Positions 1,437 to 63,034 of a stretch of DNA of 64,000 bases are shown here, in pieces. Position numbers and translations under genes: made by a program. Each line of letters opens with the position of its first letter. The first letter of the stretch is position 1. This DNA comes from Scyliorhinus canicula (Eukaryota). The notes under the pieces were generated by a model. That model was given only the letters and a program-made list of their open reading frames with translations. It had not been told where the DNA came from and made no database searches. The stretch spans positions 11,608,243-11,672,242 of the forward strand of contig NC_052176.1 of NCBI RefSeq assembly GCF_902713615.1, read 5' to 3'.

Positions 1437-2244
1437 GTTGGTTTCTCCTGTTTGGCCCGCCCCTTTCACTCTCTCTTCCACAATATTCACATCCACACAC
1501 AAGGTTTGGAAATTACATTTCCCAGGGCAGAATTCTCCCTCTTCTCAACATTTGTTTCCAAATCGGTGCCTTAATTGTAGATTTTCACCTCACTTACTGA
1601 TCAACTGAGTTTTCTGCTCCCTATCTTCTGTTTCCCTAAATACCCGGCAGCAGCAAGTCATATTTTTAAATCTAAACTCATTGATGACACGTTTTACTTG
1701 AATGTGGAAATACAATTGATCTCCTCTCCAACAGTGGAGATTTTCCTGATTGATGTCATCCTCCTGCACTGCCGGTAACACTGAACCCCAAACTCAACAA
1801 GCAGGGACAGACAGTTAAAGAATAGTCCCACCCCCTCTGAGAGTGGAGATTTTCACAGTGACACACAGATTCTGACCATTCTGATCCGAACAGCAAATTT
1901 AAAAAATAAAGATGGACTCAAAGAGGGAACGTGTAAACCAGGAGAACGTGTAAACTAGTGGGGAGTGTAAACCAGGGACAATAATAAATGAGGGGAGTGT
2001 GTTCACCAGAGAAATGTGTAAAATCAGTGGAAGATGCATAATCAAAGACATTCTCCCCGTGTGTGGGTTCCCCCGGGTGCTCAGACTTCCTCCCACAGGC
2101 CAAGCATAGAACAGAGAACAGTACACCACAGAACAAGCCCTTCGGCCCTCGATGTTGTGCCGAACAATGATCACCCTACTCAACCCCACGTATAAACCCG
2201 TAACCCAACTCCTTCTGCCCTGCAATAATTCTCGAGTTCTATGG

Positions 2245-4020
2245 AAAATGAAGTCAGTCGGTGAATTGTTAGTTTGCAGAAAGTATGAGTTTGAGGGGCT
2301 GAATGGCAGTGTAATAACAAACAAGCTGCAGGCAATGGCTGCAAATTGAATATCTCATTGGGACAAACACACAGCTACAAAGGTGATTGGTTGAGCCCTG
2401 GGGCGCAGGGCCACTTGCACCCACACACACACTGTCCCCCCAACACGGGCTCTATCGGAGGTTTTGCTCCAAATGTGATGACAGTGAAATGGGGAATATT
2501 CCCATTGATTCTCAATGCGGAATTGCTGCGCAGATCTGCGCATGCCCGGGGTAGCCCCGCCCCCTGCCTGTCGTCACTGAGATTACGCGCGCATGCGCAG
2601 CCCCGCCCTCACACACACTCCATTTGCTCAGTGAGTGGAGACGCTTTGTTCAAACTGAGTGAAATGTCAGGGCCCAGGTCAGCGAGGAAACAGCGTTCTC
2701 ATTGCAGCAGCCCATCCATTTGGGAGTGTGAGCAAAGAGGCTCAGAGATCATTACTGACTCGGGGGGAGTTCAGGGAGAATCGGGGGCTGTTTGCAAGAG
2801 GCGCAGCGGGAGCCCCATCTTGTTCCGGGACTTGGAGTGAGCGGGGGGAAGGGAGAGCTCTTTCTGGGCCTGGCTTATTGTCTGATTCTGGGGCAGGATT
2901 TGGACAGTATTTTCTATTTTTACTAATTATCAGTTGAAAGAATTGTTTAATTTATCATTGGCCTCATCTGACCCTGATTTACAAGAATTTTTTTTTCTTC
3001 CCAACGTTCATCAGATGAAGAGATGAGTTCCAAGATGATGATACCTCAGCAACATGAATGTGCAGCCGTCTCCTTCTAACTGACAGTAAGTACAATATTA
3101 ATCCAACATTGCAGAGACACAGACACAACATCAGCTCCACCGTCACAGGGAACAGAAGCAGCCACACTTACATTGAGCTCAAGTCCCAGATAAACATGTC
3201 CTATCCAACAGTGACACACAAGAGGGCAGGTGGGATAACTTTCCACAATTCACCCCTAGTCCATGAACTTTTTGCAGACAGTGCAGAAAGAGGCCATTTG
3301 GCCCATCGAGTCTTCACCAACCCACTTAAGCCCACACTTCCACCCTATCCCTGTAACCCAATAACCCCACCTAACCTTTTTTGCTCACTAAGGGCAATTT
3401 ATCATGGCCAATCCACCTGACCTTCATGACTTTGGACTGTGGGAGGAAAGCGGAGCACCCGGAGGAAACCCACGCAAACACGGGGAGAACGTGCAGACTC
3501 CACACAGACAGTGTCCCAGTGGGTAATCCAACCTGGGACCCTGGCGCTGTGAAGCCACAGTGCTATCCACTTGTGCTACCTTGCTGCCCTATCATGGAAC
3601 GTCGAATCAACTTGTTTTGATAACAGCTTTTCATCTGTAAATTAATCAGGAAAGTATTAATTAGGCTATAGATTGAGCAATCAACGTGGAAGTATCCATT
3701 TGCACTTTTTTGAAACTTTGTTGGGCTAAAATGTATCAGAAGCACTTTAATCTCACAAGTTGTGAACCTTAGGCACATGTAAAAAGTCAGATAGTAGAGC
3801 TGATTGAAAAATACATAATTAATCCTAAATTTGTACTGAGACAAGTCCAAAATAAAATATTGGGGGAATGTCCAATTCACATAACAAGCATGTCTTTCGG
3901 GACTTCTGGGAGGAAATGGGAGCATGTGGAGGAAACCCATGGAGACACGGGGAAAATGTGCAGACTCTGCAGAGGCAGCGACCAAGTGGGAAACAAATCT
4001 TGGACCGTGGCGCTGTGAAC
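2245..4020 (+). repeat. Multicopy promoter/exon-like cassette, copy A (contains an HE1 insertion)
   Basis: Near-identical core to 7443, 19757, 33605(-), 42630/45277 and 60895. Reverse CCAAT, NRF1-type GCGCATGCGC, GC boxes, donor-like GTGAGC (2837) and GTAAGT (3086). Confidence 0.85.
3277..3590 (-). mobile_element. HE1-like tRNA-derived V-SINE
   Basis: Core GGACTGTGGGAGGAAA..GGAGCACCCGGAGGAAACCCACGCA; absent from the paralogous position in the 46 kb cassette copy. Confidence 0.85.
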
Positions 4021-4061
4021 CTCTCCCCTGATATACACAATGCCCTGTTACAAACTGTTTT

Positions 4062-5270
4062 TTCACACTCCCCTGGTTTGCATGCTGACTTGGTTTCACA
4101 CTGCCCTGGTTTGCATGCTGACTTGGTTTCACACTCCCCTGGTTTGCATGCTGACTTGGTTTCACACTGCCCTGGTTTGCATGCTGACTTGGTTTCACAC
4201 TGCCCTGGTTTGCATGCTGACTTGGTTTCACACTGCCCTGGTTTGCATGCTGACTTGGTTTCACACTGCCCTGGTTTGCATGCTGACTTGGTTTCACACT
4301 GCCCTGGTTTGCATGCTGACTTGGTTTCACACTGCCCTGGTTTGCATGCTGACTTGGTTTCACACTGCCCTGGTTTGCATGCTGACTTGGTTTCACACTG
4401 CCCTGGTTTGCATGCTGACTTGGTTTCACACTGCCCTGGTTTGCATGCTGACTTGGTTTCACACTGCCCTGGTTTGCATGCTGACTTGGTTTCACACTGC
4501 CCTGGTTTGCATGCTGACTTGGTTTCACACTGCCCTGGTTTGCATGCTGACTTGGTTTCACACTCCCCTGGTTTGCATGCTGACTTGGTTTCACACTGCC
4601 CTGGTTTGCATGCTGACTTGGTTTCACACTCCCCTGGTTTGCATGCTGACTTGGTTTCACACTCCCCTGGTTTGCATGCTGACTTGGTTTCACACTGCCC
4701 TGGTTTGCATGCTGACTTGGTTTCACACTGCCCTGGTTTGCATGCTGACTTGGTTTCACACTGCCCTGGTTTGCATGCTGACTTGGTTTCACACTGCCCT
4801 GGTTTGCATGCTGACTTGGTTTCACACTCCCTGGTTTGCATGCTGACTTGGTTTCACACTCCCCTGGTTTGCATGCTGACTTGGTTTCACACTCCCCTGG
4901 TTTGCATGCTGACTTGGTTTCACACTGCCCTGGTTTGCATGCTGACTTGGTTCACACTCCCCTGGTTTGCATGCTGACTTGGTTTCACACTCGCCCTGGT
5001 TTGCATGCTGACTTGGTTTCACACTGCCCTGGTTTGCATGCTGACTTGGTTTCACACTCCCCTGGTTTGCATGCTGACTTGGTTTCACACTGCCCTGGTT
5101 TGCATGCTGACTTGGTTTCACACTGCCCTGGTTTGCATGCTGACTTGGTTTCACACTGCCCTGGTTTGCATGCTGACTTGGTTTCACACTGCCCTGGTTT
5201 GCATGCTGACTTGGTTTCACACTGCCCTGGTTTGCATGCTGACTTGGTTTCACACTCGCCTGGTTTGCAT
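4062..5270. repeat. 33-bp minisatellite, about 36 copies
   Basis: Unit CACTGCCCTGGTTTGCATGCTGACTTGGTTTCA; explains the 11-aa periodic ORFs. Confidence 0.97.
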
Positions 5271-7025
5271 GTCCTCCCACCCAATCTCTGTGGTTTCTGT
5301 ATGTTCTTTCCACATCATGCCCGACACTTGGTCCTCCACCTTTTGCCCTTGTCTGCACGTATAGGGCCACCATCTCCCGCCTCTTCGTCAGTCAGTTGTG
5401 TTGTGGGGGGTGGAGGAGGGGGTGAGGTTCTTTTCTCCCCCTCCCCCCTCCAATTGTTGGTTTGCCAATGCGCTGTCGCTCTTCGCCTGGACCCCTCCGG
5501 CCTCTCCTGTGGTCACGGCCCCAGCCCGCAGTCTGTGACAAACGTATCTGCTTCAGTTGGGGCCTTAAAAACAATATTTTTTGCCCTGGTATGTGACCCA
5601 GGCCTGGCTGGATATAACATTCTTAAGTGAACGCCGCTTTCGTACAGCGCTGCTTTGGCCCTGTTAAATCCAGCTCTGCACGTGGCCAGGTCAGCCCCAA
5701 TGTCCTGATAAATTCAGAGTCTGTGTCCTTCCCAATTTCAGTTCCTCATGTTTAAAAATAAAAAACCAATGAGGAGACAATAAAATGGAGTTCTGCTCCG
5801 ATCGACTGAGAAGCCCGAAGTGCCAGGACCTGCGCCGGAGACCACCCACGATGCAGTCGTCAATCACCCCAGCCCCGGAGAGAGAGAAGGTGAACAAAAC
5901 CCCGAGAAATGGAGAGAGGCCCACAATTCAAACAAGAACGAAAACAGAGAGAGAGACAAAATGGACCAAGGGGAGAGAGACCCCACGAGACAGAGAGAAG
6001 TAAAGACGGATGGGAGGAGACAAGAAGAGGGGCAAAACACACCTCCAAAAAGACGGAGTTCTCCTTTGATCAGTCCGAACTGCTGGCACCAGTGGAGGAG
6101 CCGCCCACGATGCTGGCACTATGTCTTCACTTACAATTCTTTAGTTGCTCACCCAATAGACCTTTTTTTTTCTCTTCCCCTGTACTCTGGTAAGTGCCTC
6201 CTTATGCCAAGATCTGAACTTTCCAAAATATTTGAATTGTTGCACTTGAAGGTGTTTTTGATTGTAGTGGAGAGCCTCCACGTGTGAGCTACCCCCTCTG
6301 AACTCAGCCCCCCTCTGTTTAGACTCATAACTCATTTTCCAAATTCCCCTCATTTCACACATTCACAGGTTTACATATTCCCCTTGTTTTGCACACTCTC
6401 CTTGTTTTACACAGTCCTATGTTTTACACATTATCCTGGTTAACCCACTCATCTGCTCAATACACTCCCCTGTTCCACACACGACTCTGGTTTACACATT
6501 TCCAATAGTTAACACACTCCCCATGTTTACCCACTCCTCTGTTATGCTTGGCTTTACACACTCCCCTGCTTTTACACACTCTGCAAGTTTACACATGCTT
6601 TTCTTGTCCACTCTCTCCTGCTTTTAAGCACTCCCCTGGTTCACATTCACCACAAATTCTATAAACTCCTGGTTTTAACTCCCCAGGTTTTACCCATTTC
6701 AACAAATACACACACTCATATTGTGTAATTGTCGGTTTTCACAATCCTCTCTTAAACATACTTATACACCTAGTTTTACACACACACACCTGGTATTACA
6801 GCCTCAAATTATACATGTATTGTACAATCACTGGGTTTGCACACTGCCCAGCTTACACACTTCATAGGGTTTTACACAATCCCGGTTCACAGACACCCAG
6901 CTTGCACAATCACTTACTTTTTCACACTTTCCTTGTTAACACACTTGCACCCATGGCTTTGCACGATCCATTGGTTGTACACACATCCCTGACTTTACAC
7001 ACTCCCAGTTTATGTAATTCTATTA
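5270..7025 (+). repeat. Segmental duplicate of ~56475-59625 (L1 ORF1/5' fragment plus degenerate 17-mer array), internally deleted
   Basis: 5270-5745 matches 56475-57105; 5785-6420 matches 58050-58690; 6421-7025 matches 59020-59625. Confidence 0.85.
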
Positions 7026-7442: not shown

Positions 7443-7738
7443 TTCACTTTGAAATTGGAAATGGGTGATAATGAAGTGAATCAGTGAAATGGTAGTTTGC
7501 AGAAAGTGTGAGTTTGAGGGGCTGAGTGACAGTGTAATAACAAACAAGCTGCAGGCAATGACTGCAAATTGAATATTTCATTGGGACAAACACACAGCTA
7601 CAAAGGTGATTGAATGATCCCTTGGGCGCAGGGCCACTTGCACCCACACACACACAGTCCCCCCAACACGAGCTCTGTAGGAGATTTCGCTCTATATGTG
7701 ATGACAGTGAAATGGGGAATATTCCCATTGATTCTCAA
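7443..7738 (+). repeat. Cassette copy B, 3'-truncated
   Basis: Matches 2260-2516 and breaks after CCCATTGATTCTCAA. Confidence 0.85.
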
Positions 7739-11373: not shown

Positions 11374-11760
11374 ATGCCTGACGAGAAGAAACAAACATCG
11401 AAGCCAGCTGCCAAGAAGGGAGCCAAGAAAGTCATTAAGAAACCGGCAGTAAAGGGCGGCAAGAAGCGGCGAAGGTCGAGGAAGGAGAGTTACTCCATCT
11501 ACATCTACAAAGTGATGAAGCAGGTTCACCCCGACACCGGCATCTCCTCCAAGGCCATGAGCATCATGAACTCGTTCGTCAGCGATATTTTCGAGCGTAT
11601 CGCGGGTGAGGCTTCCCGCCTGGCCCATTACAACAAGCGCCACACCATCAGCTCCCGGGAGATCCAGACCGCCGTGCGCCTGCTGCTGCCCGGGGAACTG
11701 GCCAAGCACGCCGTGTCGGAAGGGACAAAGGCGGTCACCAAGTACACCAGCTCCAAGTAA
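11374..11760 (+). CDS. H2B: Histone H2B (128 aa)
   Basis: MPDEKK...[26 protein letters not shown]...[10 protein letters not shown]. Confidence 0.98.
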
Positions 11761-11796
11761 AACTGCACAAGGACTGAAAACCACCCCAAACACAAC

Positions 11797-11812
11797 GGCT
11801 CTTTTTAGAGCC
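11797..11812 (+). terminator. Histone 3' stem-loop (H2B)
   Basis: GGCTCT-TTTT-AGAGCC followed by ACCCA. Confidence 0.95.
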
Positions 11813-12584
11813 ACCCACAACTTCTGTAAAGCAGCCAAACCATATTTTAAATTATCGGTGTGTTTCTATTATGAATAACCAAATCCGTTTTAATAGCGTT
11901 TCACTACAACAATATCCTGTATAATGCCGAGTTATCGTCATGTCGATCATTGTACGTTGTTTATAAAATCCCATCATTTAGTGATGCTCGGTGACCGCTT
12001 CATACTCGGCCGCTGTGGCTGGATTTGGAGAGAGAATCGAACACCAATACCTCCCGTAGCATTTGTGTTCAGCCTTACAAATTACTCTCTTTCCATTTAT
12101 GTTCATGTTCACACTCAATGATCGAGAGCACCCCGGTGGTGTGGGTAAACTCCATTTCAATACTGACACTAGCTCCAAATTGCTCACTCCACTTTTAACA
12201 CTGAGGAAGCGGCAGCAGTCTACAATATGAATCAATGTTATTATGTTTGCAGATGGCTGTGAATTAGACAGTGTCGGCGGCTGAGAGCATTTTAAACAAC
12301 AGCCAGATTAAGCCTGTGGAGTCAGTTCCCCTTCTACAGATCCTAAACGTTTCTCTCCACAGATGCTCCCAGACACGCTGAGTTGATCCAGCATTTTCTC
12401 TTTAATTCACATTTGCAGCCTCCGCATTATTTTGGTTTAATTTATTTTGGGTTTATTGTCAGTTAGAGACAAAATCAGAAACTAACAGATAATGGGAAAC
12501 TAGACGCGGGAAAGAGAGAAAAAATCCAACAATCTTTCAACTCAAATGGTTTAGTCACATTTTTTATTCAATTTTATCTGTTAT

Positions 12585-12795
12585 ATCTTTTCGCGCCCAT
12601 TTAAGATTTGAAATAAATATTCGGTTGGAATCTGAACATTTGGCGCCCAAAATTTCCGCCCTCAGCACCGTGGATTCTCCTGATTGGTGCTTCAAACAGA
12701 TATCTGATTGGTCACTTTGTAGCCGGCTCCACAATGTTGTTGAGATAACCAATCAGCAATGTGTGCACCGCCATTCCTCCTGAAGCTATAAGAGA
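12585..12795 (+). promoter_or_regulatory. H2A promoter: E2F-like sites, three CCAAT boxes, TATA
   Basis: TTTTCGCGCC, TTTGGCGCCC, GATTGG twice, CCAATC, CTATAAGA; mirrored near-identically at about 38290-38500. Confidence 0.7.
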
Positions 12796-12800
12796 AGTGA

Positions 12801-13232
<432 letters not shown>

Positions 13233-13262
13233 AGCGACCATTCTTTAATCTAATAACCCAAA

Positions 13263-13278
13263 GGCTCTTTTCAGAGCC
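13263..13278 (+). terminator. Histone 3' stem-loop (H2A)
   Basis: GGCTCT-TTTC-AGAGCC. Confidence 0.95.
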
Positions 13279-13695
13279 ACTCACTTTATCTGAATAAGGG
13301 CGACCTGTTCTCAATCCGCTTAGTGCCGTGTTTGTGAGAATTTCCCTGAGGCTTCAGGCTGGAATGAGAGCTTTCCCCGGTGTTGGTATTTACCGGAGGG
13401 CCGGCAGTTTCTGGCGGGCTGGCTTTCTGAAACTGTCCATTTATGTGCAATGGGTCTGCGGGGTTTCAGAATTCATTCCCGCTCTCATGACAATGTCAGT
13501 GCTCACTGTGCGTTTACAGGGCTGACTGCGGAGAAAGGTTTTGTGTTTCCCTCTGCAGCACGTTCATATCGCCGTGAACAGAGAAATATTTGTCTATTAT
13601 AACGCGAACACTTTGCCTCCCCAATCGCGAAACCAGCTCCATGCGATATTCTGCTGCCATTCAGAGGTCAGTGCTCTCAATGTGAGGGTTTGGGC

Positions 13696-13711
13696 GGCTC
13701 TTAAAAGAGCC
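13696..13711 (-). terminator. Histone 3' stem-loop (H4)
   Basis: GGCTCT-TTTA-AGAGCC on the minus strand. Confidence 0.95.
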
Positions 13712-13745
13712 TTTGGTTTATGTTATAATTGTCAAATGGAGTTTC

Positions 13746-14066
<321 letters not shown>

Positions 14067-19560: not shown

Positions 19561-19756
19561 GTGTGTAATGTCCTCATTATCCAATTAAAGAAATTCAAGT
19601 AAATCTGGACCTCTGGAGAAAATGTAAATATTATTGTACGATACGATATTATTGTGATGACAATTTGAAATGTTTGACAATGTTTGTTTCAAGGGATTTT
19701 ATAAATGAATTATATTTTTGAAAATAAATTGTTTGCTTCTGTGAAAAATGTAGCAA

Positions 19757-21180
19757 GTCTGTGAAATGGTTGTTTGCAGAAAGTGTGAGTTTGAGGGGCT
19801 GAATGGCAGTGTAATAACAAACAAGCTGCAGGCAATGGCTGCAAATTGAATATCTCATTGGGACAAACACACAGCTACAAAGGTGATTGGTTGAGCCCTG
19901 GGGCGCAGGGCCACTTGCACCCACACACACACAGTCCCCCCAACACGGGCTCTATCGGAGGTTTTGCTCCAAATGTGATGACAGTGAAATGGGGAATATT
20001 CCCATTGATTCTCAATGCGGAATTGCAGCGGGGATCTGCGCATGCCCGGTGTAACCCCGCCCCCTGGTTGTCGTCATTCTGAGGGTGAGAGCGCATGCGC
20101 ATCCCCGCCCTCACACACACTCCATTTGCTCAGTGAGTGGAGACGCTTTGTTCAAACTGAGTGAAATGTCAGGGCCCAGGTCAGCGAGGAAACAGCGTTC
20201 TCATTGCAGCAGCCCATCCATTTGGGAGTGTGAGCAAAGAGGCTCAGAGATCATTACTGACTCGGGGGGGAGTTCAGGGAGAATCGGGGGCTGTTTGCAA
20301 GAGGCGCAGCGGGAGCCCCATCTTGTTCCGGGACTTGGAGTGAGCGGGGGGAAGGGAGAGCTCTTTCTGGGCCTGGATTATTGTCTGATTCTGGGGCAGG
20401 ATTTGGACAGTATTTTCTTTATTTTACTGATTATAAATTGAAAGAATTGATTGATCTATCATTGGCCTCATCTGACCCTGATTTACAAGAGATATGCTTC
20501 CTTCTCCCTAGTTCAACTGATGAAGAGATGAGTTCCAAGATGATGATTCTTCAGCAACATGAATGTGGAGCCGTCTCCTTCTAACTGACAGTAAGTACAA
20601 TATTAATCCAACATTGCAGAGACACAGACACAACATCAGCTCCACCGTCACAGAGAACAGAAGCAGTCACACTTACATTGTGCTCAAGTCCCAGATAAAC
20701 ATGTCCAATCCAACAGTCCAATTGAAGAAATTCAAGTAAATCTGGACCTCTGGAGATAATGTAAATATTATTTACAGATACACGAGAGGACAGGCGGGAT
20801 AATTTTCCACAATTCACCCCTACTCTCTCATGGAATGTTGGATCAACTTTTGATAACTGCGTTTCATCTGTAAAGTAATCAGTATAGTCTTAATTAGGCT
20901 ATAGATTCAGCAATCAATGTGCAAGTATCCATTTGCACTATTTTGTAACTTTCTTCATTTAAAATGTATCACAAACAAAGCACTTGAATAAGGCATTAAC
21001 AGAAAAATTATACATTTAAATAGTTCTCCAAAAGGACAATTACCAGATTGTAAGGCCGTCCTTTCATCTCACAAGTTGTGAACCTTTGGTGCACGTAACA
21101 GGTCGGATAGTACAGCTGATTGAAAAGTGCCGAATTAATCATAAACTTCTACCAAGACACCTCCCAAAACAAAATATTAA
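19757..21180 (+). repeat. Cassette copy C, pointing into the palindrome centre
   Basis: Homologous to 2260-3860 and the reverse complement of 32160-33605. Confidence 0.88.
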
Positions 21181-21539
21181 ATTCCAATCCAAATATCTCT
21201 CACAATCTCAGATATAACGGTACAGTGTCATTTTCATGAAACAGACATGGAAATAGATCATTTAACATATCAATGTTGTCACTAAAAGTAATAATGGAAG
21301 ATCAATACTGAACAGAATGTTCTCCATTAACTCACAAAACAGATATTGACAAGTGCAGAAAATACAATAAAATCACATATCAGAGAGGTGAACAGATAGA
21401 GATTAAATGCAGAATCCCATAACCAGGACAGACAGCTACAAATGCAAGCATACAGAACAGAGACAGAGAGTTACAGGATGAAATTATTTTTTTCATAATA
21501 CTTGACACATAACAGAGGCAGACAGCTACAGTGGAAAAC

Positions 21540-32159: not shown

Positions 32160-33605
32160 TAATATTTTGTTTTGGGAGGTTTCTTGGTAGAAGTTTATGA
32201 TTAATTCAGCACTTTTCAATCAGCTGTACTATCCGACCTGTTACCTGTGCCAAAGGTTCACAACTTGTGAGATGAAAGGATGGCCTTACAATCTGGTAAT
32301 TGTCCTTTTGGAGAACTATTTAAATGTATAATTTTTCTGTTAATGCCTTATTCAAGTGCTTTGTTTGTGATACATTTTAAATGAAGAAAGTTACAAAATA
32401 GTGCAAATGGATACTTGCACATTGATTGCTGAATCAATAGCCTAATTAATACTATACCGATTACTTTACAGATGAAACGCAGTTGTCACAACCAGTTGAT
32501 CCAACATTCCATGAGAGAGTAGGGGTGAATTGTGGAAAATTATACCGCCTGTCCTCTCGTGTATCTGCAAATAATATTTACATTATCTCCAGAGGTCCAG
32601 ATTTACTTGAATTGCTTCAATTGGATAATGCGGACTGTTGGATTGGGCATGTTTATCTGGGAATTGAGCTCATTGTAAGTGTGGCTGCTTCTGTTCCCTG
32701 TGACGGTGGAGCTGATGTTGTGTCTGTGTCTCTGCAATGTTGGATTAATATTGTACTTACTGTGAGTTAGAAGGAGACGGCAGCACATTCATGTTGCTGA
32801 GGAATCATCATCTTGGAACTCATCTCTTCATCTGTTGAACGAGGGGGAAGAAAACGTATCTCTTGTAAATCAGGGTCAGATGAGGCCAATGAGAGATCAA
32901 TCAATTCTTTCAATTTCTAATCAGTAAAATAAAGAAAATACTGTGCAAATCCTGCCCCAGAATCAGACAATAAGCCAGGCCCAGAAAGAGCTCTCCCTTC
33001 CCCCCGCTCACTCCAAGTCCCGGAACAAGATGGGGCTCCCGCTGCGCCTCTTGCAAACAGCCCCCGATTCTCCCTGAACTCCCCCCGAGTCAGTAATGAT
33101 CTCTGAGCCTCTTTGCTCACACTCCCAAATGGATGTGCTGCTGCAATGAGAACGCTGTTTCCTCGCTGACCTGGGCCCTGACATTTCACTCAGTTTGAAC
33201 AAAGCGTCTCCACTCACTGAGCAAAAGGAGAGTGTGTGGGGGAGGGGATGCGCATGCGCTCTCAATCGCAGAATGACGACAGGCAGGGGTGGGGCTACCC
33301 CGGACCTGCGCAGATCCGCGCAGCAATTCCGCCTTGAGAATCAATGGGAATATTCCCCATTTCACTGTCATCACATTTGGAGCAAAACCTCCGATAGAGC
33401 CCGTGTTGGGGGGACTGTGTGTGTGTGGGTGCAAGTGGCCCTGCGCCCCAGGGCTCAACCAATCACCTTTGTAGCTGTGTGTTTGTCCCAATGAGATATT
33501 CAATTTGCAGCCATTGCCTGCAGCTTGTTTGTTATTACACTGCCATTCAGCCCCTCAAACTCACACTTTCTGCAAACTTACATTTCACTGACTGAATTCA
33601 TTTTT
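32160..33605 (-). repeat. Cassette copy D, convergent with copy C
   Basis: Reverse complement of 19757-21180. Confidence 0.88.
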
Positions 33606-34441
33606 CATAGAAGCATACAATATATTTTCAAAAATATACTACATTTATAAAATCCCTTGAAACAAACATTGTCAAACATTTCAAATTGTCATCACAACAA
33701 TATCGTATCGTACAATAATATTTACATTTTCTCCAGAGGTCCAGATTTACTTGAATTTCTTCAATTGAATAATGAGAACATTACACACATTTCAATATTC
33801 ACATTACAATTCTTCTCAAAATATTTACATCGGTCATGTTCCACCCTGTGACGCTTCAATAATTTAAAACATTTTCCACAGTTACCAGCCCCTCTAGAGT
33901 GTTAATCATACAGACCATAAGGCACAGGTGCAGAATTAGGCCACTCGGCCCATCTGGTCTACTCCGCCATCCAATCATGGCTGATATTTTCTCATCCCCA
34001 TTCTCCTGCCTTCTCCCCATAACCCCTGAGCCCCTTATTAATCAAGAATCTATCTATCTCGGACTTAAAGACACTCCGTGATTTGGCCTCCACAGATTCA
34101 CCACCCTCTGGCTGAAGAGGTTCCTCCTCATCTCTGTTTTAAATGATTGCCCCTTTAGTCTGAGGTGATGGATGTTGTCCTCTGGTTCTTGTTTTTCCTC
34201 CAAGTCGAGACATCCTCTCCATGTCCCCTCTATCCAGACCTCGCAGTATCCTGGAAGTTTCAATAAGATCCCCCCTCGTTCTTCTAAACTCCAACGAGTA
34301 CAGACCCAGAGTTCCCAAACGTTCTTCACATGACAAGTTCTTCATTCCAGGGATCAATCTTGTGAACCTCCTCGGGGTGGGGGGGGGGGGGGGGGGGGGA
34401 GGTTTACAAAGTTACCAGATCCTTTTTAGTATTAATCAGCG

Positions 34442-35674: not shown

Positions 35675-35995
<321 letters not shown>

Positions 35996-36029
35996 GAAAC
36001 TCCATTTGACAATTTTAACAAAACCCAAA

Positions 36030-36045
36030 GGCTCTTTTAAGAGCC
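36030..36045 (+). terminator. Histone 3' stem-loop (H4)
   Basis: GGCTCT-TTTA-AGAGCC. Confidence 0.95.
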
Positions 36046-36459
36046 GCCCAAACCCTCACATTGAGAGCACTGACCTTAGAATGGCAGCAGAATAACCCAT
36101 GGAGCTGGTTTAGCGAGTCAGACCCTGGGAACCTCGATTTCCTGTTAAGACGGGTGACGTTATAGCAGGAAATCCTTTATTATCATTCATTTGTTTTCTC
36201 ATTAGAAGGCGACATAGATTTGCTGTACAGTCTGAAACAACCTTTCTCCGCAGTCAGCCCTGTAACCGCACATAGTGAACACGGACATTGTAATGACAGC
36301 GGGAATTCTGTGCCTGCTCGGTTTTAATCATCCAATATCGGTTGAGTCGAATCCGAGACAAAAATGGGAACAGGAATCATTGAGATGTTTTTGATATTCA
36401 CAACTAGAGATTGATTTTTTTTTAGTTTTCTCAAATATCCGTTCCCTGTCCCTGTGAAA

Positions 36460-37082
<623 letters not shown>

Positions 37083-37111
37083 AACCCGGCTTCACCAATA
37101 ATAACAACAAA

Positions 37112-37152
37112 GGCTCTTTTAAGAGCCACCACGTCTGTCAGGAAAAGAGCTA
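37112..37152 (+). terminator. H3 stem-loop plus histone downstream element
   Basis: GGCTCT-TTTA-AGAGCC at 37112-37127; AAAAGAGCT at about 37143. Confidence 0.95.
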
Positions 37153-37195
37153 CAACACCCAATCCCTCATTTGCGTTGCTGTCATTTCGAATATA

Positions 37196-37414
37196 GTAAG
37201 AAGTCTTACAACACCAGGTTAAAGTCCAACAGGGTTGTTTCAAACACGAGCTTTCGGAGCACGGCTCCTTCTTCAGGTGAATGTTGACCTGAAGAAGGAG
37301 CCGTGCTCCGAAAGCTCGTGTTTGAAACAAACCTGTTGGACTTTAACCTGGTGTTGTAAGACTTCTTACTGTGCTCACCCCAGTCCAACGCCGGCATCTC
37401 CACATCATGGCTAC
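37196..37414 (+). mobile_element. Foldback Penelope pseudo-LTR insertion with a 13-bp target-site duplication and a hammerhead motif on each strand
   Basis: TSD CATTTCGAATATA at 37183-37195 and 37415-37427; palindrome 37195-37370; same family as 17910-18035. Confidence 0.85.
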
Positions 37415-37800
37415 CATTTCGAATATAAGCATCGTCAGTGTCTCATTGCATTCGGAAGCTTGAGTGACATTCTCACATGCCAGTGAATGATCACCCTTTT
37501 ACGGAGGGAGCGGGTGGTCTGAAAGACATTTTAGATTATTAGAGTCTTCCCGGTCCCACTGCTGGTTAAGGGTCGCTAAATTGACAAATAAAACAGCTCT
37601 GGTTAGTCGCACTGACATTGTAATGAAAGTGGGAATGAATTCTAAAACCCCATGGCACATAAATGGTCAGTCTCTATCGCCCTCCTGCAAATACCAACAA
37701 CAGGAATGCTCTCATTCCAGGCTGAAGCCTCAGGGAAATTCTCACAAACACGGCACTAAGCGGATCGAGAACAGGTCACCTTTTTTCAGATAAAATGAGT

Positions 37801-37816
37801 GGCTCTGAAAAGAGCC
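37801..37816 (-). terminator. Histone 3' stem-loop (H2A)
   Basis: GGCTCT-TTTC-AGAGCC on the minus strand. Confidence 0.95.
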
Positions 37817-37846
37817 TTTGGGTTATTAGATTAAAGAATGGTCGCT

Positions 37847-38284
<438 letters not shown>

Positions 38285-39279
38285 TCACTTCTCTTATAGC
38301 TTCAGGAGGAATGGCGGTGCACACATTGCTGATTGGTTATCTCAACAACATTGTGGAGTCGGCTACAAAGTGACCAATCAGATATCTGTTTGAAGCACCA
38401 ATCAGGAGAACCCACGGTGCTGAGGGCGGAAAGTTTGGGCGCCAAATGTTCAGATTCCAACCGAATATTTATTTCAAAGCATAAAAGAGCGCGAAAAGAT
38501 AAAACAGAGAAAATTGAATAGGGACCGTAAAAAATGTGACTAAATAATTGAAATTTGAGTATAGGATTGTTGGCTTCTCTCTCTTTGACGAGTCTACAGT
38601 TTCCCTTTATCTGTCAGTTTCCGATTTGGGGATTTCTTTGTAACTGACGAACCCAAAACAAAATAGTAGTAAAAATAAAAGTAAATAATGCGGATGCTGC
38701 AAATTAAAGAGCTGGAGAAACTCACCATGTCTGTGAGTACCCGTTTCGGATTTGATCTCAGAGATTTTTACAACTTGGATTCGAATCGAGTTTAATCTAG
38801 CTGCTGTTTAAAACGCTATCAGCCGCAGACAGAATGTTTTATTTACAGCCAGCTGCAAATATTATAAAAAAGGTCCATATTGTAGACTACTTTAGTGCCA
38901 AAAGTGGAGTGAGCAGTTTGGAGCTAGTATCAGTATTGACATGGAGTTTTCCCACACCACTAATGTGCTCTCGACATAAATCGAAAGGAGATTTTTTCGA
39001 ATCCCGAACACAAATTGAAAGGGAGGTTTTGGAGTTCTATTCTCTCTCCAAAGCTAGCGACAGATACCGAATGTGAACAAGTCAGAAACCAAAGACACAG
39101 TGTCACCGAGCGGTCACCAAATGATGGGACACGTAGATCGACCGGGCGATAACTGGACATCACCCAGAATGTTATGTTTTTGTCAAACCCGATTTGAACG
39201 GATTTGGCTATTCCTAATAGAAATAAACTAATAATTGTTTAAAGTATGATGGTTTGGCTGCTTTCCAGAAATTGTGGGT

Positions 39280-39295
39280 GGCTCTTAAAAGAGCC
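39280..39295 (-). terminator. Histone 3' stem-loop (H2B)
   Basis: GGCTCT-TTTA-AGAGCC followed by ACCCA. Confidence 0.95.
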
Positions 39296-39332
39296 GTTGT
39301 GTTTGGGGTGGTTTTCAGTCCATTGTGCAGTT

Positions 39333-39710
39333 TTACTTGGAGCTGGTGTACTTGGTGACCGCCTTTGTCCCTTCCGACACGGCGTGCTTGGCCAGTTCCC
39401 CGGGCAGCAGCAGGCGCACGGCGGTCTGGATCTCCCGGGAGCTGATGGTGCTGCGCTTGTTGTAATGGGCCAGGCGGGAAGCCTCACCCGCGATACGCTC
39501 GAAAATATCGCTGACGAACGAGTTCATGATGCTCATGGCCTTGGAGGAGATGCCGGTGTCGGGGTGAACCTGCTTCATCACTTTGTAGATGTAGATGGAG
39601 TAACTCTCCTTCCTCGACCTTCGCCGCTTCTTGCCGCCCTTTACTGGGATCTTCTTCTGGGTTTTCTTAGCGCCCTTCTTGGGAGCTGGAGCTTTTTTGT
39701 CATCAACCAT
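39333..39710 (-). CDS. H2B: Histone H2B (125 aa)
   Basis: [16 protein letters not shown]...KYTSSK; TATAAAAG near 39770 and octamer-like CTCATTAACAT near 39795 upstream. Confidence 0.98.
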
Positions 39711-42415: not shown

Positions 42416-42889
42416 GTTGACTGTGTAAACCAGCGGAGTGTTCAAATCATATTCTATTACAAATTGGAAACCAGGGGAGTGAGTAAATCAGTGGTGTGGG
42501 TAAACCAGGGAGTGTGGAAATCAGGGGAATGATTCAAACCAGGGGACTGTCCAAGACAAGACAATTGTCTAATGCCTCTGAAATGTATCAACCAGCGCAC
42601 TGTGTGAACCAGAATAGTGTACAAACCAAATTCAGTTTCAACTATGAAAGGTGTTAAAATGAAGTCAGTCAGTGGAATGGTAGTTTGCAGAAAGTGTGAG
42701 TTTGAGGGGCTGAGTGACAGTGTAATAACAAACAAGCTGCAGGCAATGGCTGCAAATTGAATATCTCGTTGGGACAAACACACAGCTACAAAGGTGATTG
42801 GTTGAGCCCTGGGGCACAGGGCCACTTGCATCCACACACACACAGTGTCTCAGAGTTGCGGGAGTGGAGCTGCTGCTTTGCTGCTGGAG

Positions 42890-43440
42890 GTGAGAGTGGG
42901 ACCACCTGGGGCCTGGTGCTGTTCCCCATCCCGGGGTGAAGACCCTGCCCTCTGTCCTCCCATCCCGGTGCCCGAGGTGGGACCGGGACCGCCTGGTGCT
43001 GTTCCCCCTCCCGGGGTGAAGACCCTGCCCTCTGTCCTCCCATCCCGGTGCCCGAGGTGGGACCGGGACCGCCTGGGGCCTGGTGCTATTCCCCATCCCG
43101 GGGTGAAGACCCTGCCCTCTGTCCTCCCACCCCTCTGAGTGAGGTGGGACTGGGACCACCTGGGGTCTGGTGCTGTTCCCCCTCCCAGGGTGAAGACCCT
43201 GCCCTCTGCCCTCCCGCCCCTCTGAGTGAGGTGGGAGTGGGTCCGCCTGGGGCCTGGTGCTGTTCCCCCTCCCGGGGTGAAGACCCTGCCCTCTTTCCCT
43301 CCTGCCCCTCTGAGTGAGGTGGGAGTGGGTCCGCCTGGGGCCTGGTGCTGTTCCCCCTCCCGGGGTGAAGACCCTGCCCTCTGCCCTCCCGCCCCTCTGA
43401 GTGAGGTGGGAGTGGGTCCGCCTGGGGCTGCTGTGAAGAC
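42890..43440. repeat. ~87-bp GC-rich tandem repeat, about 6 copies
   Basis: GAGGTGGGAGTGGGTCCGCCTGGGGCCTGGTGCTGTTCCCCCTCCCGGGGTGAAGACCCTGCCCTCTG units. Confidence 0.9.
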
Positions 43441-43609
43441 AAAGGACTTTGCCTTGGGCCCTCACAGGGCTGAAGAGCGCAGTCCGCCCCCCCTTTTTCA
43501 CCCCCTGTGGTGGGTGTGTGGCAGCTGCCACTTTGCTTTAGGCCACTCCGGGGCTGAAGAACGCTGCCCGGCTTACAGTGACTATCTGCTGCTGCCCTGT
43601 GACACCTGC

Positions 43610-44030
43610 TGTTGTGCTGCCTTCCCCTAGTCCCCTGATTTCAGTTACATGGTTGTGCCATACCAAGGGTGGGCATAGCCAGTACCCCAGGGGCATCCCC
43701 AGAGACCTGCCACTTTTGCGGCCTGGTGGAGACCGTGGAGCATGTGTATGTTGTCTGTCCTCGGCTGCATTCCCTTTTTAGTTTTTTGACGACATTGTTG
43801 TTTTTGTCTTTGCACTTTAGCCCCACGTTCCTGACCTACGGACATCCGGAGCAGGGGGGAGGGTGGAAGGTGGAGGGCCTCCTTGTGAACCTGCTCCTGG
43901 GCCTGGCCAAACTTGCCATTAATAGGTCCAGTTAGTGGGCGACCGAGGGGGTCATCCGGCCTGACTGTCTGCCCCTCTTCCACGGCCCTGTTCGTGGCCG
44001 TGTGTCCCTGGAGCTGTAGCATGCGGTGAC
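43610..44030 (+). mobile_element. Tx1/L1-clade ORF2 C-terminal fragment
   Basis: CHFCGLVETVEHVYVVCPRL (CCHC knuckle) followed by LLLGLAKLAI. Confidence 0.72.
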
Positions 44031-46411
44031 CAAATACAGTCACAAACATCCCCCACCTTTTGTTTTTTTTGATAGTAGTATTAAATAATCAGCACAGTTG
44101 CTTTCCGGAAAACAAAATGTACTTGGCTATTCCCGTCATTTGTGGAAGAGGTGCTGCTAAATTGACTTAATTTGAGGTTAATCTGTTCAGCAATTTTATT
44201 TGTTGATGGTATTCGGCAATTGGTATGGCTCAGCAAATGAGACCTGTCGACCCATCATCCAGTTTTTCTTTCTTCAGAAAAGTACTATTTGTGGTAGGAT
44301 GAGATATAAGGAGATTTTGCCTTTTGATTTGCCAGCACGGTAAATGGTATCTAGAAATCGCTATAGCTCTGATTATGGCCTGTGGCCCTTACTCATTAAT
44401 ATGATGGGGCTATTCCCAGCATGGCATAAGTGTCTAAATCGGTGTTCCCACTGGCAGTAATATTGCTTTCTGCTCTCTGGATTCCTGGCAGCTTCTGAAG
44501 TAAATGACTGTTGTCCTGTGAGAAATGTACTTGGTAAACATGGAAAATTCTGAGTTAAAAGTAATTGTCAAGTGGCAGAGTCATCAACAAATGTGGAGAT
44601 AAATCTGTGACAAACCATGTCCTTAGTTCATTCACCTTATTATCTGCATGCCTGTATTCTCTTCAAAAGCCATTTTGTGTGCTTCAGCAACCTGCATCAG
44701 TATAGCGTTAACAGCAGAGAAAGGGATTTTGTGAGGACACCTTGCAGACCCTTATGAATTTGGATACTGTTTTGGTTTTTTGACCGGATTACCACTCAGA
44801 ATCCAGCTTTATCAACAGCTTAACTCATTAGAAGATGCACCAATGAAGAATTGGCAAATTCTACAAGATTTCAACCTTCAACCCCATATTGACTGCTTAC
44901 AACAGTGGTGTAACTTGCAGAAATGTCAGTAGTCACTTAGGCTTTCTCATATTGAAGCATTAGTTCATCACTGGGCTTTAGTTCATCAGTGGCAAATTAC
45001 CCTCCAATATAGGCAGTCTGTTTGATCTTGAAATCATTGCAGCCATGCCTAATCTGACCTTCATTCAGTGTTTGTGCACTTGTACTTTGTAAAACTAGCC
45101 GTAGAGCATCAATCAGAGGAATCACACTTTTCATCTCTCACTGATCCAGAAACACAGCCTGTTGCCAATCTGCTGAGAGCAGATAACAAACTAGGGTCAA
45201 ACCTGGAATCTTATTGGCTCAGCCTCTCACTGAATTACCTTTCTGAGCTACCGCGGGGACTTGTAGTTTTTGACTACAACACGGTCTCTATAGGAGGTTT
45301 TGCTCTATCTGTGATGACAGTGAAATGGGGAATATTCCCATTGATTCTCAATGCGGAATTGCTGCGCGGATCTGCGCATGTCCGGTTTAGCCCCGCCCCC
45401 TGCCTGTCGTCACTCTGAAGCTGACAGCGCATGCGCAGCCCCTCCAGCGAGGAAACAGCGTTCTCATTGCAGCAGCTCATCCATTTGGGAGTGTGAGCAA
45501 AGAGGCTCAGAGATCATTACTGACTCTGGGGGAGTTCAGGGGGAATCGGGGGCTGTTTGCAAGAGGCGCAGCGGGAGCCCCATCTTGTTCCGGGACTTGG
45601 AGTGAGCGGGGGGGAAGGGAGAGCTCTTTCTGGGCCTGGCTTATTGTCTGATTCTGGGGCAGGATTTGCACAGTATTTTCTTTCATTTACTAATTATCAG
45701 TTGAAAGAATTGATTGATCTCTCATTGGCCTCATCTGACCCTGATTTACAAGATATTTGTTTTCTTCCCCCTAGTTCAACAGATGAAGAGATGAGTTCCC
45801 AGAACAAGATGATGATTCTTCAGCAACATGAATGTGCCGCCGTCTCCTTCTAACTGACAGTAAGTACAATATTAATCCAACATTGCAGAGACACAGACAC
45901 AACATCAGCTCCACCGTCACAGGGAACAGAAGCAGTCACACTCACATTGAGCTCAAGTCCCAGATACACATGTCCAATCCAACAGTGATACACGAGAGGG
46001 CAGGTGGGATAATTTTCCACGATTCACCCCTACTCCATATCATGGAACGTTGGATCAACTTGTTGTAATGACAGCTTTTCATCTGTAAAGTAATCAGGAT
46101 AGTATTAATTAGGTTATAGATTGAGCAATCAATGTGGAAGTATCCATTTGCACTTCTTTGTAATTTTGTTGGATTAAAATATATCCGGAAGCTCATTCAT
46201 CTCACAAGTTGTGAACTTTAGGTGCAAGTAAAAAGTCAGTGCTGCTGATTGAAAAGAACAGAATCATTCATGAGATTGAACTGAGACAAGTCCCAAAGCT
46301 AAATATTGGGGGAATATCCAATTCTCCTAACAAGCATGTCTTTCGAGACTTGTGGGAGGAAACCGGAGCATCCGGAGGAAACCCATGCAGACATGGGGAA
46401 GACGTGCATAC

Positions 46412-49400: not shown

Positions 49401-49487
49401 TTTACACACTCCCCTGCTTTACACACTGCCCTGCTTTACACACTGCCCTGCTTTACACACTCCCCTGCTTTACACACTGCCCTGCTT
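46412..49487. repeat. 17-bp minisatellite, about 180 copies
   Basis: Unit CTGCTTTACACACTGCC; explains the 998-aa periodic ORF. Confidence 0.97.
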
Positions 49488-60894: not shown

Positions 60895-61320
60895 TTCACT
60901 TTCAAATTGTAAAGGGGTGAAAATGAAGTGAATCAGTGAAATGTTAGTTTGCAGAAAGTGAGAGTTTGAGGTGCTGAATGGCAGTGTAATAACAAACAAG
61001 CTGCAGGCAATGGCTGCAAATTGAATATTTCATTGGGACAAACACACAGCTACAAAGGTGATTGGGTGAGCCCTGGGGCGCAGGGCCACTTGCACCCACA
61101 CACACACAGTCCCCCCAACACGGGCTCTATCGGAGGTTTTGCTCCAAATGTGATGACAGTGAAATGGGGAATATTCCCATTGATTCTCAATGCTGGATTG
61201 CTGTGGGGATCTGCGCATGCTCGGGGTAGCCCCGCCCCTGCCTGTCGGCCTGAGGCTGAGTGTGCAGGTGCAGTCCCTCCCCCACACTGTCTCTCAGCTC
61301 CATTGAGCCAGTGAGCGGAA
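60895..61320 (+). repeat. Cassette copy F: core joined to a different downstream region
   Basis: Core matches 2260-2570; sequence after about 61250 diverges; donor-like GTAAGT near 61689. Confidence 0.85.
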
Positions 61321-63034
61321 TGGGCTTTCATTCAGCAGCGGTCGGAGACATCACTGCCCCACAGGGAAGTGAACAAACAGCATCTGTTCACAGCAGCGCA
61401 TGGCTTTAGAATGGCGGCTGCCCATTGCCTCAGAGAATGGCATTGAGCGCCGGGCCGGACAATCAGGCGGAGGCAGCCGCTGTTTGGGATCTGCCCCCTG
61501 GAGCAGGAGCTGCTCCCGGAACTGGAGTTAGTGGGAGGGAAGGAGAAGCAATTCTCACCCACTGTGTGGACAGGGGCAAAAGCTCTCGCTGCTGAGGATC
61601 ATTGCTGCTTTCTCTCCCTCAACCAGGCGCCAGCTGAGAAGTGACAAAGTTCTATTTTAAACAGTTTCTGCTTGTTTGCTGTTGCACAGTAAGTTCAAAG
61701 TGAATTGCCAAGAGAAATCTGTCCCTCCCAGAGTTACTGCTCCATCGCATTGTCCAGCTCAAGAAACAGTGCGCGGGATGGACTCTGCGTAAATGTCTGA
61801 AAATTGTTGTAACATCGCTCCAAACACCAGATCAGCAGGAACAGATTGCTGCAGTATTGTGGTGGGCTCACACACTGATGTAATATAATAATCACTTATT
61901 GTCACAAGTGGGCTTCAATTAAGTTACTGTGAAAAGCCACTAGATGTGCCACTGGTTTCGCTTTTATGATTGTTCATTACAATAATTATTGGGAAAAAAT
62001 GCATTGATTCCATTTCTATCTTCCAGCTCACCTATTCTTCCGATATCGGAGTTACGTTTTCTTTATGCACGGAAAACAATGATGGAAACAGATGATACGT
62101 CGACAGAAGGAGAGGTTCAGCGAGCTGGTTCCAGCACACAATAGGTACAGTGTCACTCATACAGCACACAGATACTGCCAGATCATTAGGTCTACAGTCC
62201 AACAAAAATACAATTAGAGACATACACAGATACAAATGTTGCCAGGCAACCTTTCAGTAAATTAGTCAAACAGAGCAGTTAAGAGGGAGGTTGTATTCAT
62301 TCCTCTCCAACCTCGTACACCTGTGAGCTGGACACATCAATCTCGGGGCGAAAGCAACACATCCGTAGATTAAATTGCACGGTATCACATTGGTTAAAAA
62401 TTAAGTAGATTAACTTCAACACATTGTCTCAGATATTCGTTATGTGGCAGTGCAGCAGAATTCCACAGTTGCACACAACACCAGGGACACAGGACAAGAG
62501 ACTGACAAAGGCAGAGTGAAGACAACATTGTTGCACCTTGGAGGAAACTGAATCCAGCAGAGAAAGATACACACATGTTCTCACTTCACCAGAGTAATAC
62601 AGAAACCGAAGAAATCCCTCGCACACAATATCAGAGAATGACAGAGTAATTCCAGAGTAAATCCTGCATTTACACACAATACCACCAGTGACAGATCCAG
62701 AAGGAAAACAGTATCTGTGTACAGTACCAGAGACTGGTGTGTACAGAATGGTTCAGCACCACAGTTACTAAGGCAGAGAATGACGATTGCAATACTAATG
62801 GAAACTTTAGACTCACTTCCAACACTGACATCAATGAGCTGCATATTCATATGTAATTCAGAAACTAGACCACATAATTTATCTCAAATTCACATTCAGT
62901 TTCCATAGGTACACAATTCACCTCATGCCTCCATACAGCACCCTGGATAGACAGCCAAAAATTCAAACTTCCTTCAGATGAAGTGCACTAGCCTGACAGA
63001 TACAGAAGTAAATTTAGTCTCACATTCCAGATTA

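What the first reader, a model, noticed from the sequence alone, without database searches (positions are those of the whole stretch)
2245..3100. Six-copy conserved cassette with promoter grammar and splice signals interleaved with histone genes
Seen: a ~250-bp core (GTTTGCAGAAAG...CCCATTGATTCTCAA) is nearly identical at 2270, 7495, 19772, 33575(-), 42684/45277 and 60948, while the flanks differ. It has a reverse CCAAT, NRF1-type GCGCATGCGC and GC boxes. Four copies continue into a donor-like GGA|GTGAGC (2837), a ~170-nt intron-like stretch with a pyrimidine tract and AG, a ~75-nt exon-like block and ACA|GTAAGT (3086). No transposase, LTR ends, poly-A tail or Pol III boxes are visible. Inference: an amplified Pol II promoter with first exons for a lncRNA family, or for the 5' UTRs of a distant multigene family such as C2H2 zinc fingers. 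Copy F joins the core to different downstream sequence, like a portable promoter.
Basis: partly seen in the sequence, partly recalled or inferred. Interest (0 to 1): 0.72.

Follow-up and report, generated by a model that had tools for sequence, protein, structure and literature searches.

The report
Spliced non-coding passenger among histone genes
About thirty near-identical gene starts (a promoter-like stretch plus two short exons with no conserved protein frame) lie between the histone genes of this probably shark genome, were likely copied along with the histone blocks, and likely make a spliced non-coding RNA, as two intron-lacking copies on other chromosomes suggest; its job is unknown and no RNA reads could be checked.

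Summary
The repeat is real. The window holds six copies. The genome holds 30 exon-bearing copies, all inside two histone-gene sub-clusters (C31, C27) or on one small histone contig; 39 of 39 exact core matches lie in the two sub-clusters. It is not a dispersed transposon: it moves inside 6-10 kb duplicated histone blocks.

Both GT donors are kept in 30 of 30 copies, and each keeps an AG acceptor. Two copies elsewhere look retro-processed. One lacks intron 1 at the exact spliced length. The other joins exon 2 at its donor to a CR1 LINE acceptor. This is indirect evidence of past germline transcription and splicing. No protein constraint was found.

A third paralog sits 3' of H2B genes.

Best reading: the 5' end of an old spliced non-coding Pol II unit, amplified as a passenger of the histone cluster. 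Low exon-1 diversity may be gene conversion rather than selection. No reads were laid; the 3' end and function are unknown.

The parts
2244..2515 (+). Conserved upstream 'core' of copy A, with reverse CCAAT at 2386-2390
   Evidence: ATTGG kept in 35 of 46 aligned copies; 24-mer exact at 39 places, all in the two sub-clusters
2516..2614 (+). CpG-rich promoter-like stretch: two NRF1-type motifs, GC box, CGTCA half-site (motif names recalled)
   Evidence: CpG o/e 0.75-0.81 against 0.45 for the window; motifs kept in 28, 25, 21 and 24 of 29 copies
2631..2836 (+). Inferred non-coding exon 1; 5' end not mapped (an outside fragment begins at the position matching 2631)
   Evidence: (pi 0.014 over 2690-2836)
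2837..3014 (+). Intron 1 (GT..AG). First 55 nt (to 2891) are as uniform as exon 1; in 12-14 of 30 copies a TAG acceptor ends at the position matching 3006
3015..3085 (+). Exon 2 (71 nt; 79 nt from the upstream acceptor)
   Evidence: joined forms in outside copies
3086..3866 (+). Donor 2 and shared downstream body; a SINE-like repeat is inserted at about 3266-3590 in A-type copies
7467..7738 (+). Copy B: core only, joined to the far-downstream body of an F-type unit (likely deletion derivative)
19737..20717 (+). Copy C: full; CAG acceptor lost, upstream TAG kept
32634..33612 (-). Copy D: full; part of a 3.5-kb inverted duplication with C
42656..46038 (+). Copy E: core split by about 2.4 kb of other DNA, ZNF143-type site at 45256 (motif recalled), 72-nt deletion before exon 1
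60919..62260 (+). Copy F: core and promoter 92% like A, followed by an old paralog of exon 1 (donor-like GGA|GTTAGT) and of the exon 2 region; 4 F-type copies in the genome
253..930 (-). Histone H1, head to head with copy A (context)
11374..14057 (.). Histone block H2B(+), H2A(+), H4(-) (context)
35684..39710 (.). Histone block H4(+), H3(+), H2A(-), H2B(-) (context)

Best explanation
The cassette is likely the 5' end of an old spliced non-coding RNA polymerase II gene that sits in the gaps between histone-gene blocks and was likely multiplied to about 30 copies as a passenger when those blocks were duplicated and rearranged. Shown: copy number and confinement to two histone sub-clusters, block duplications carrying it, kept splice sites, lack of coding constraint, mosaic haplotypes, and two outside copies joined at splice sites. 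Inferred: a CpG/NRF1-type housekeeping promoter starts RNA near 2600-2680; exon 1 splices to exon 2; exon 2 splices on to whichever acceptor lies downstream of a given copy (once a CR1 5' UTR), so 3' ends would vary; such RNAs were made in the germline and occasionally retro-copied by LINE machinery. Conversion between copies likely keeps exon 1 as uniform as the neighbouring histone coding sequences. If anything is selected, it is most likely the act of transcription and splicing in cis, not a product.
For: Exon-1 query: 33 of 33 candidates scored, 30 in the two sub-clusters or contig C392, 3 outside; exon-2 query 31 of 31 candidates scored, one outside. Core 24-mer: 39 of 39 exact matches in the sub-clusters, control 0. 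Copies recur with whole histone blocks, 6-10 kb blocks at 98-99%. GT at both donors in 30 of 30; an AG acceptor in 30 of 30, the 6 that lost CAG all keep TAG. C10:134038240-382: exon 1 and exon 2 are adjacent, with 7 nt between anchors, exactly the number that donor 1 to TAG splicing predicts. C1:1027116-340: exon 2 ends at ACA|GT and continues into a CR1 5' UTR at a point preceded by AG in 9 of 11 other CR1 copies; one G at the join fits splicing, not ACAG microhomology; a LINE-type 3' tail follows. No coding signal: ATG missing in 14 of 30, 14 non-synonymous against 7 synonymous variants; no protein homolog. Variable sites 16 of 147 in exon 1 against 29 of 94 in distal intron 1 (Fisher p 1.6e-4, copies not independent). 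Four-gamete conflicts in 236 of 1128 site pairs.
Against: No read, cap or chromatin evidence was obtained. H3 and H4 third positions are as uniform (0.003, 0.018), so exon-1 uniformity need not mean selection. The first 55 nt of intron 1 are as uniform as the exon, and the C1 copy keeps them and joins at a non-canonical point (GG), so that join may be a deletion. In the C10 copy 4 of 7 letters at the join differ, and no tail or target duplication was seen. The CR1 that supplied the C1 join was not found in the two fetched sub-clusters, so its source copy is unidentified. DNA 0.5-2 kb downstream is A>T and C>G on the sense strand, opposite to the usual transcription skew (recalled). Loss of CAG may be one or two events, which weakens the acceptor argument. 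Unspliced fragments of histone 3' flanks are also scattered over other chromosomes, so outside fragments as such are common here. GCGCATGCGC also occurs at 10 places outside the cassette in fetched DNA, several in repeats.
Confidence: 0.62

Rival explanations
1. The cassette is the orphaned or still-used 5' leader of a C2H2 zinc-finger (or other protein-coding) gene family; the coding exon was lost or lies far away.
For: Promoter type and two short non-coding exons fit such genes (recalled). Three zinc-finger remnants mark the edges of the sub-clusters; the one at C27:353585 lies 31 kb downstream of a same-strand copy.
Against: The remnants are 2-4 fingers broken by stops or frameshifts. The two on C31 are on the opposite strand to the copy that points at them and have no cassette upstream. 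No run of two or more fingers in a further 400 kb and 200 kb. 150 of 295 listed frames were scanned (histone frames and others left out): no family above cut-off except one LINE endonuclease. Exons under 95 codons would be missed.
Confidence: 0.14
2. The cassette is a distal, cell-cycle-independent promoter whose exons splice into a downstream histone gene (mostly H2B), giving polyadenylated histone mRNA outside S phase.
For: The next histone downstream is on the same strand in 29 of 29 copies that have one, and is H2B in 22. A paralog of the exon region lies 0.2-1.3 kb after H2B stop codons. Spliced polyadenylated H2B mRNAs exist in mammals (PMC5100578, passages).
Against: Histone blocks here point inward, so any element in a gap sees a divergent gene behind and a same-strand gene ahead; the geometry is largely forced, and copies are related. 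Distances are 6-54 kb. H2B genes keep their own CCAAT/octamer/TATA-like promoters, and I saw no clear acceptor in the 230 nt before them (by eye). H2B has 247 candidates (40 scored) over 9.5-12.1 Mb of C31, and the fetched ones outside the sub-clusters have no A-type cassette nearby. Neither outside copy contains histone sequence. In mammals the splice is in the 3' UTR, not a 5' leader.
Confidence: 0.12
3. The cassette is now a silent or noise-level relic (decayed gene head or very old repeat) kept uniform only by the concerted evolution of the cluster.
For: No reads; uniformity matched by histone third positions; many copies are deleted, split or interrupted; reversed strand skew downstream; no fold signal (z -0.19).
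Against: CpG excess over the promoter. Sharp diversity steps at the exon-1 block and at donor 2. The C1 copy is 99% identical in exon 1 and its LINE parts about 95% like their families, so transcription was fairly recent. Not dispersed like a transposon.
Confidence: 0.12

Closest known systems
Non-histone genes interspersed in histone arrays (5S or rRNA cistron in Artemia, Mytilus, boll weevil, Potamopyrgus; PMC13525598, passages read)
   Same: A second multicopy transcription unit is amplified together with the histone blocks.
   Different: Here the passenger is a spliced Pol II-type unit of no known family, present only in a sub-domain of the cluster; the review's text has 0 hits for shark, cartilaginous or lncRNA.
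Primate core duplicons and segmentally duplicated promoters (PMC6920530, first of six parts read; PMC3371713 and PMC13333887, abstracts and outlines)
   Same: A promoter-and-first-exon module shared by mosaic duplication blocks with varying flanks.
   Different: No protein family or positive selection; copies are on two chromosomes; the module is ancient (paralogs at about 60%); nothing shows that it drives the duplications.
First-exon capture by a retrotransposon: SVA_F1/MAST2 and pt_SVA_D6/STK40 (PMC6139936, passages)
   Same: The C1 copy has GC-rich host exons joined at their donor to an acceptor in the 5' part of a non-LTR element.
   Different: A single copy, 5'-truncated and without the promoter; it founded no subfamily (exon queries found one such copy); the element is CR1, not SVA.
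Spliced polyadenylated replication-dependent histone mRNAs (HIST1H2BC/BD/BK, H2AC; PMC5100578, passages)
   Same: Extra exons inside a histone cluster; the G paralog puts a donor-like site about 400 nt after an H2B stop.
   Different: The cassette has its own promoter and no histone coding sequence; no join to a histone gene was found.

Membership tests
Multi-exon Pol II lncRNA | Present-day transcript with mapped start and end | tested here: inconclusive
   No reads were laid; only indirect support from two outside copies.
Multi-exon Pol II lncRNA | Canonical splice sites that are used | tested here: met
   GT/AG kept in 30 of 30; joins at donor 1-TAG by length (C10) and at donor 2 (C1).
Multi-exon Pol II lncRNA | No conserved reading frame | tested here: met
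   longest ATG frames over exons 1-2 are 58 or 81 codons, closed.
Transposable element (SINE, LINE, LTR, MITE) | Dispersed copies with sharp shared ends | tested here: not met
   39 of 39 core matches and 30 of 33 exon-1 matches in histone blocks; carried in long duplications.
Transposable element (SINE, LINE, LTR, MITE) | Match to Dfam or Repbase | not testable with these tools
   No such library is offered.
Transposable element (SINE, LINE, LTR, MITE) | Terminal repeats and target-site duplications at the cassette ends | not tested
   No dedicated search; ends vary between copies.
Core duplicon | Shared by most duplication blocks of the region | tested here: inconclusive
   True within the two sub-clusters; not of histone blocks fetched elsewhere.
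Core duplicon | Encodes a fast-evolving protein family | tested here: not met
5' UTR of C2H2 zinc-finger genes | Intact same-strand finger exon downstream | tested here: not met
   1 of 30 copies has a broken remnant 31 kb on, beyond an H2B; none intact.
Spliced histone mRNA (HIST1H2BC type) | Donor in a histone 3' UTR joined to downstream exons | tested here: inconclusive
   Not so for the cassette. For the G paralog, 0 of 9 dispersed fragments examined were joined at its donor.
Known structured RNA (Rfam) | Covariance-model match or stable fold | tested here: not met
   Only 5 histone stem-loops in the window; best E 3.4 over 2150-3400; fold z -0.19.
Processed retrocopy (outside copies) | Intron loss at splice sites plus LINE-type tail or target duplication | tested here: inconclusive
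   C1: donor-2 join and tail present, first join non-canonical. C10: intron 1 absent at exact length, no tail seen. C1:139.11 Mb is unspliced.

The most novel reading that the evidence does not exclude
Cartilaginous-fish histone clusters carry their own ancient family of spliced Pol II non-coding units (paralogs A, F and G, one fused to the H2B 3' flank). Their constitutive transcription keeps the cluster open outside S phase, seeds the rearrangements that rebuild it, and traps downstream CR1 elements into mobile chimeric RNAs.
Probability: 0.2. Interest if true: 0.75.

Novelty: new variant of a known kind. Interest (0 to 1): 0.45.

Why it matters
Known passengers of histone arrays are rRNA genes. 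A spliced Pol II unit with about 30 copies and much older paralogs would be a different kind of passenger, and it raises a testable question: how a housekeeping-type promoter coexists with S-phase, intron-less, stem-loop genes in one locus. The C1 copy also records host exons captured by a CR1 element. If reads show only low-level, variable transcripts, this is ordinary duplication debris with a live promoter.

Tried and rejected
Sequencing runs: no RNA holder listed. 14 runs guessed to be RNA held 0.34-0.46 of the words, but none was laid, so this is no evidence either way. No reads or contigs were laid on the cassette, which leaves expression, start site and exon 3 open.
Orientation to histone genes (27 of 30 head to head upstream): rejected as evidence because block polarity forces it.
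Small protein from the ATG at 2664: rejected.
Structured RNA: rejected; one search gave no result.
Search for a shared third exon by downstream conservation: shared DNA runs about 430 nt past exon 2, then splits by lineage; no common exon or poly(A) signal was identified.
Spliced retrocopies of the G paralog: 0 of 9.
Further weak paralogs in 400 kb of flanks: one G-type copy, nothing else.
Literature: no paper on this element (0 hits; 3, unrelated by title; 0; 0); the library lacks most subscription journals, and no supplements were read. The genus name used as a search term was my guess; no call names the organism.
Earlier-findings look-ups by place and by sequence found nothing.

Full report
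Observation. Self-comparison confirms six related stretches in the window: full copies A (2237-3264), C (19737-20717) and D (33612-32634, minus), a split copy E (42656-42846 and 45277-46038), a core-only copy B (7467-7738) and copy F (60919-61287 by BLAST). They lie between histone genes, marked by five Histone3 stem-loops and the H1, H2A, H2B, H3 and H4 frames. The motifs and splice signals are at the stated places. The NRF1-type and GC-box motifs lie just 3' of the core. Motif names are recalled.

Where it occurs. The genome is 4.22 Gb. An exon-1 query gave 33 candidates, all scored: 30 lie in C31:11.43-11.75 Mb, C27:0.12-0.56 Mb or contig C392, and 3 lie elsewhere. An exact core 24-mer occurs 39 times, all in the two sub-clusters. 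Maps of 450 kb of C31 and 600 kb of C27 show the cassette recurring with whole histone blocks; duplicated blocks reach 10 kb at 99%. The histone region is much larger: H2B has 247 candidates (40 scored), spanning at least 9.5-12.1 Mb of C31, and 200 kb fetched around other H2B genes held no A-type cassette. So the cassette is a passenger of one sub-domain, not a transposon and not a part of every histone block.

Relatives. F is not a promoter on foreign DNA. Its downstream sequence aligns with exon 1 (score 158; shuffles max 87), at 63-66% over 2631-2836 against a 55% shuffled baseline, falling to near baseline beyond. It has four copies. Core-only copy B continues into sequence 85-89% like the far body of the F unit, so it looks like a deletion derivative. 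A third class, G, lies 0.2-1.3 kb after H2B stop codons: F against G scores 218 (shuffles max 166), C against G 169.5 (max 161), and A exon 1 against G only 59 (max 62.5, not significant). G has about 30 near copies among the 40 of 79 candidates scored. The unit is therefore old and tied to histone spacers.

Evidence for splicing. Both donors keep GT in 30 of 30 copies. Each copy keeps an AG acceptor: 24 have the CAG ending at 3014, and the 6 without it have a TAG 8 nt upstream; these losses may be few events. At C10:134038240-382 an 80%-identical copy has exon 1 next to exon 2 with 7 nt between anchors, the number that donor 1 to TAG splicing predicts, though 4 of the 7 letters differ. At C1:1027116-340 a copy runs from the position matching 2747 to 2891, jumps to 3007, and ends exactly at donor 2, where a CR1 5' UTR begins. 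That point is preceded by AG in 9 of 11 other CR1 copies, one more is a base off and one lacks it. The following frame is 49% like an esterase-type ORF1 that precedes an endonuclease ORF, and a LINE-type tail follows. This resembles first-exon capture in SVA_F1 (PMC6139936, passages). The first join of the C1 copy has no canonical donor and may be a deletion. The source CR1 was not found in the sub-clusters. The third outside copy (C1:139.11 Mb, 82%) is unspliced and starts at the position matching 2631.

Constraint. Diversity among copies is 0.014 in exon 1, 0.009 in the next 55 nt, 0.070 in distal intron 1, 0.033 in exon 2, 0.047 in intron 2 and 0.137 in the promoter stretch. Promoter motifs are nonetheless mostly kept (21-28 of 29), and CpG is enriched there. 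H3 and H4 third positions are as uniform as exon 1 (0.003 in 15 genes, 0.018 in 19). Distances in exon 1 do not track those in the intron, and 236 of 1128 site pairs fail the four-gamete test. Conversion is thus active and could explain the uniformity without selection on the RNA. There is no coding signal, no Rfam family and no fold excess.

Downstream. Shared sequence ends about 430 nt past exon 2 and then splits by lineage. No common third exon was identified. Zinc fingers occur only as three broken remnants at sub-cluster edges; one has a same-strand copy 31 kb upstream. A Pfam scan of 150 of 295 unmasked frames found one LINE endonuclease above cut-off and nothing else. H2B is often the next same-strand gene (22 of 29), but block polarity forces the strand, and H2B genes have their own promoters. 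Strand skew downstream is opposite to the usual sense skew; degenerate satellites may cause it, and it is unexplained.

Mechanism and verdict. Most likely this is the head of an old spliced non-coding Pol II gene in the spacers of the histone cluster. Block duplication, deletion and inversion multiplied it; conversion homogenised it; it was transcribed in the germline and spliced on to local acceptors. Copying and sequence features are shown; present transcription, the start, the 3' end and any role are inferred or unknown, because no reads were laid. Earlier AI notes on other shark genomes describe similar passengers; they are untested leads, and a look-up by sequence found no match. My searches found no paper on it. 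I rate it a new variant of a known kind, interest 0.45.

Noticed in passing
G000 C4:222146933, C10:50427969, C13:17003175, C9:84154585, C26:17269005, C16:74068638, C20:67278255, C18:95612314, C4:53409512 (L222-L230): Short (100-340 nt) unspliced fragments of the H2B 3' flank are inserted on other chromosomes without H2B coding sequence; two begin just after the stem-loop, as a downstream cleavage product would.
   Followed up: partly
L208:1050-2130 (C31:10941050-10942130) and about 30 similar places: G paralog of the exon region directly 3' of H2B, with donor-like GA|GTAAAG about 400 nt after the stop and an acceptor-like CAG about 660 nt further.
   Followed up: partly
C31:11417993-11421422, C31:11794851-11798305, C27:353585-356921: Broken C2H2 remnants next to a divergent H1 (58-61% to the window's H1) mark the edges of the sub-clusters.
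   Followed up: partly
H3 and H4 genes on C31 and C27: Coding sequences are almost identical across two chromosomes (third-position diversity 0.003 and 0.018) while spacers differ by 5-15%.
   Followed up: partly
L048:1388-2300 and about eight like places: A CR1-type ORF1 remnant lies on the same strand 2-3 kb after exon 2 in A-type units; it is absent after the window's copy A.
   Followed up: partly
window 4061-5271, 46413-49487, 51748-52630, 42887-43428: Minisatellite arrays of 33, 17, 55 and 87 bp; related 17-bp units recur near most cassette copies.
   Followed up: no
window 19561-23003 and 33788-30315: 3.5-kb inverted duplication (91%) in which copies C and D face each other across a CA/CT-rich tract; a similar facing pair lies at C31:11511055 and 11528957.
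   Followed up: no
0.5-2 kb downstream of exon 2, and upstream of H2B genes: A over T and C over G on the cassette's strand, which could reflect opposite-strand transcription from histone promoters or satellite content.
   Followed up: partly
CR1 5' UTR copies L145-L155: The UTR contains 88-bp repeats, each with a GT..AG pair only about 33 nt apart; L150 has another non-CR1 sequence joined at the same point as the C1 copy.
   Followed up: no
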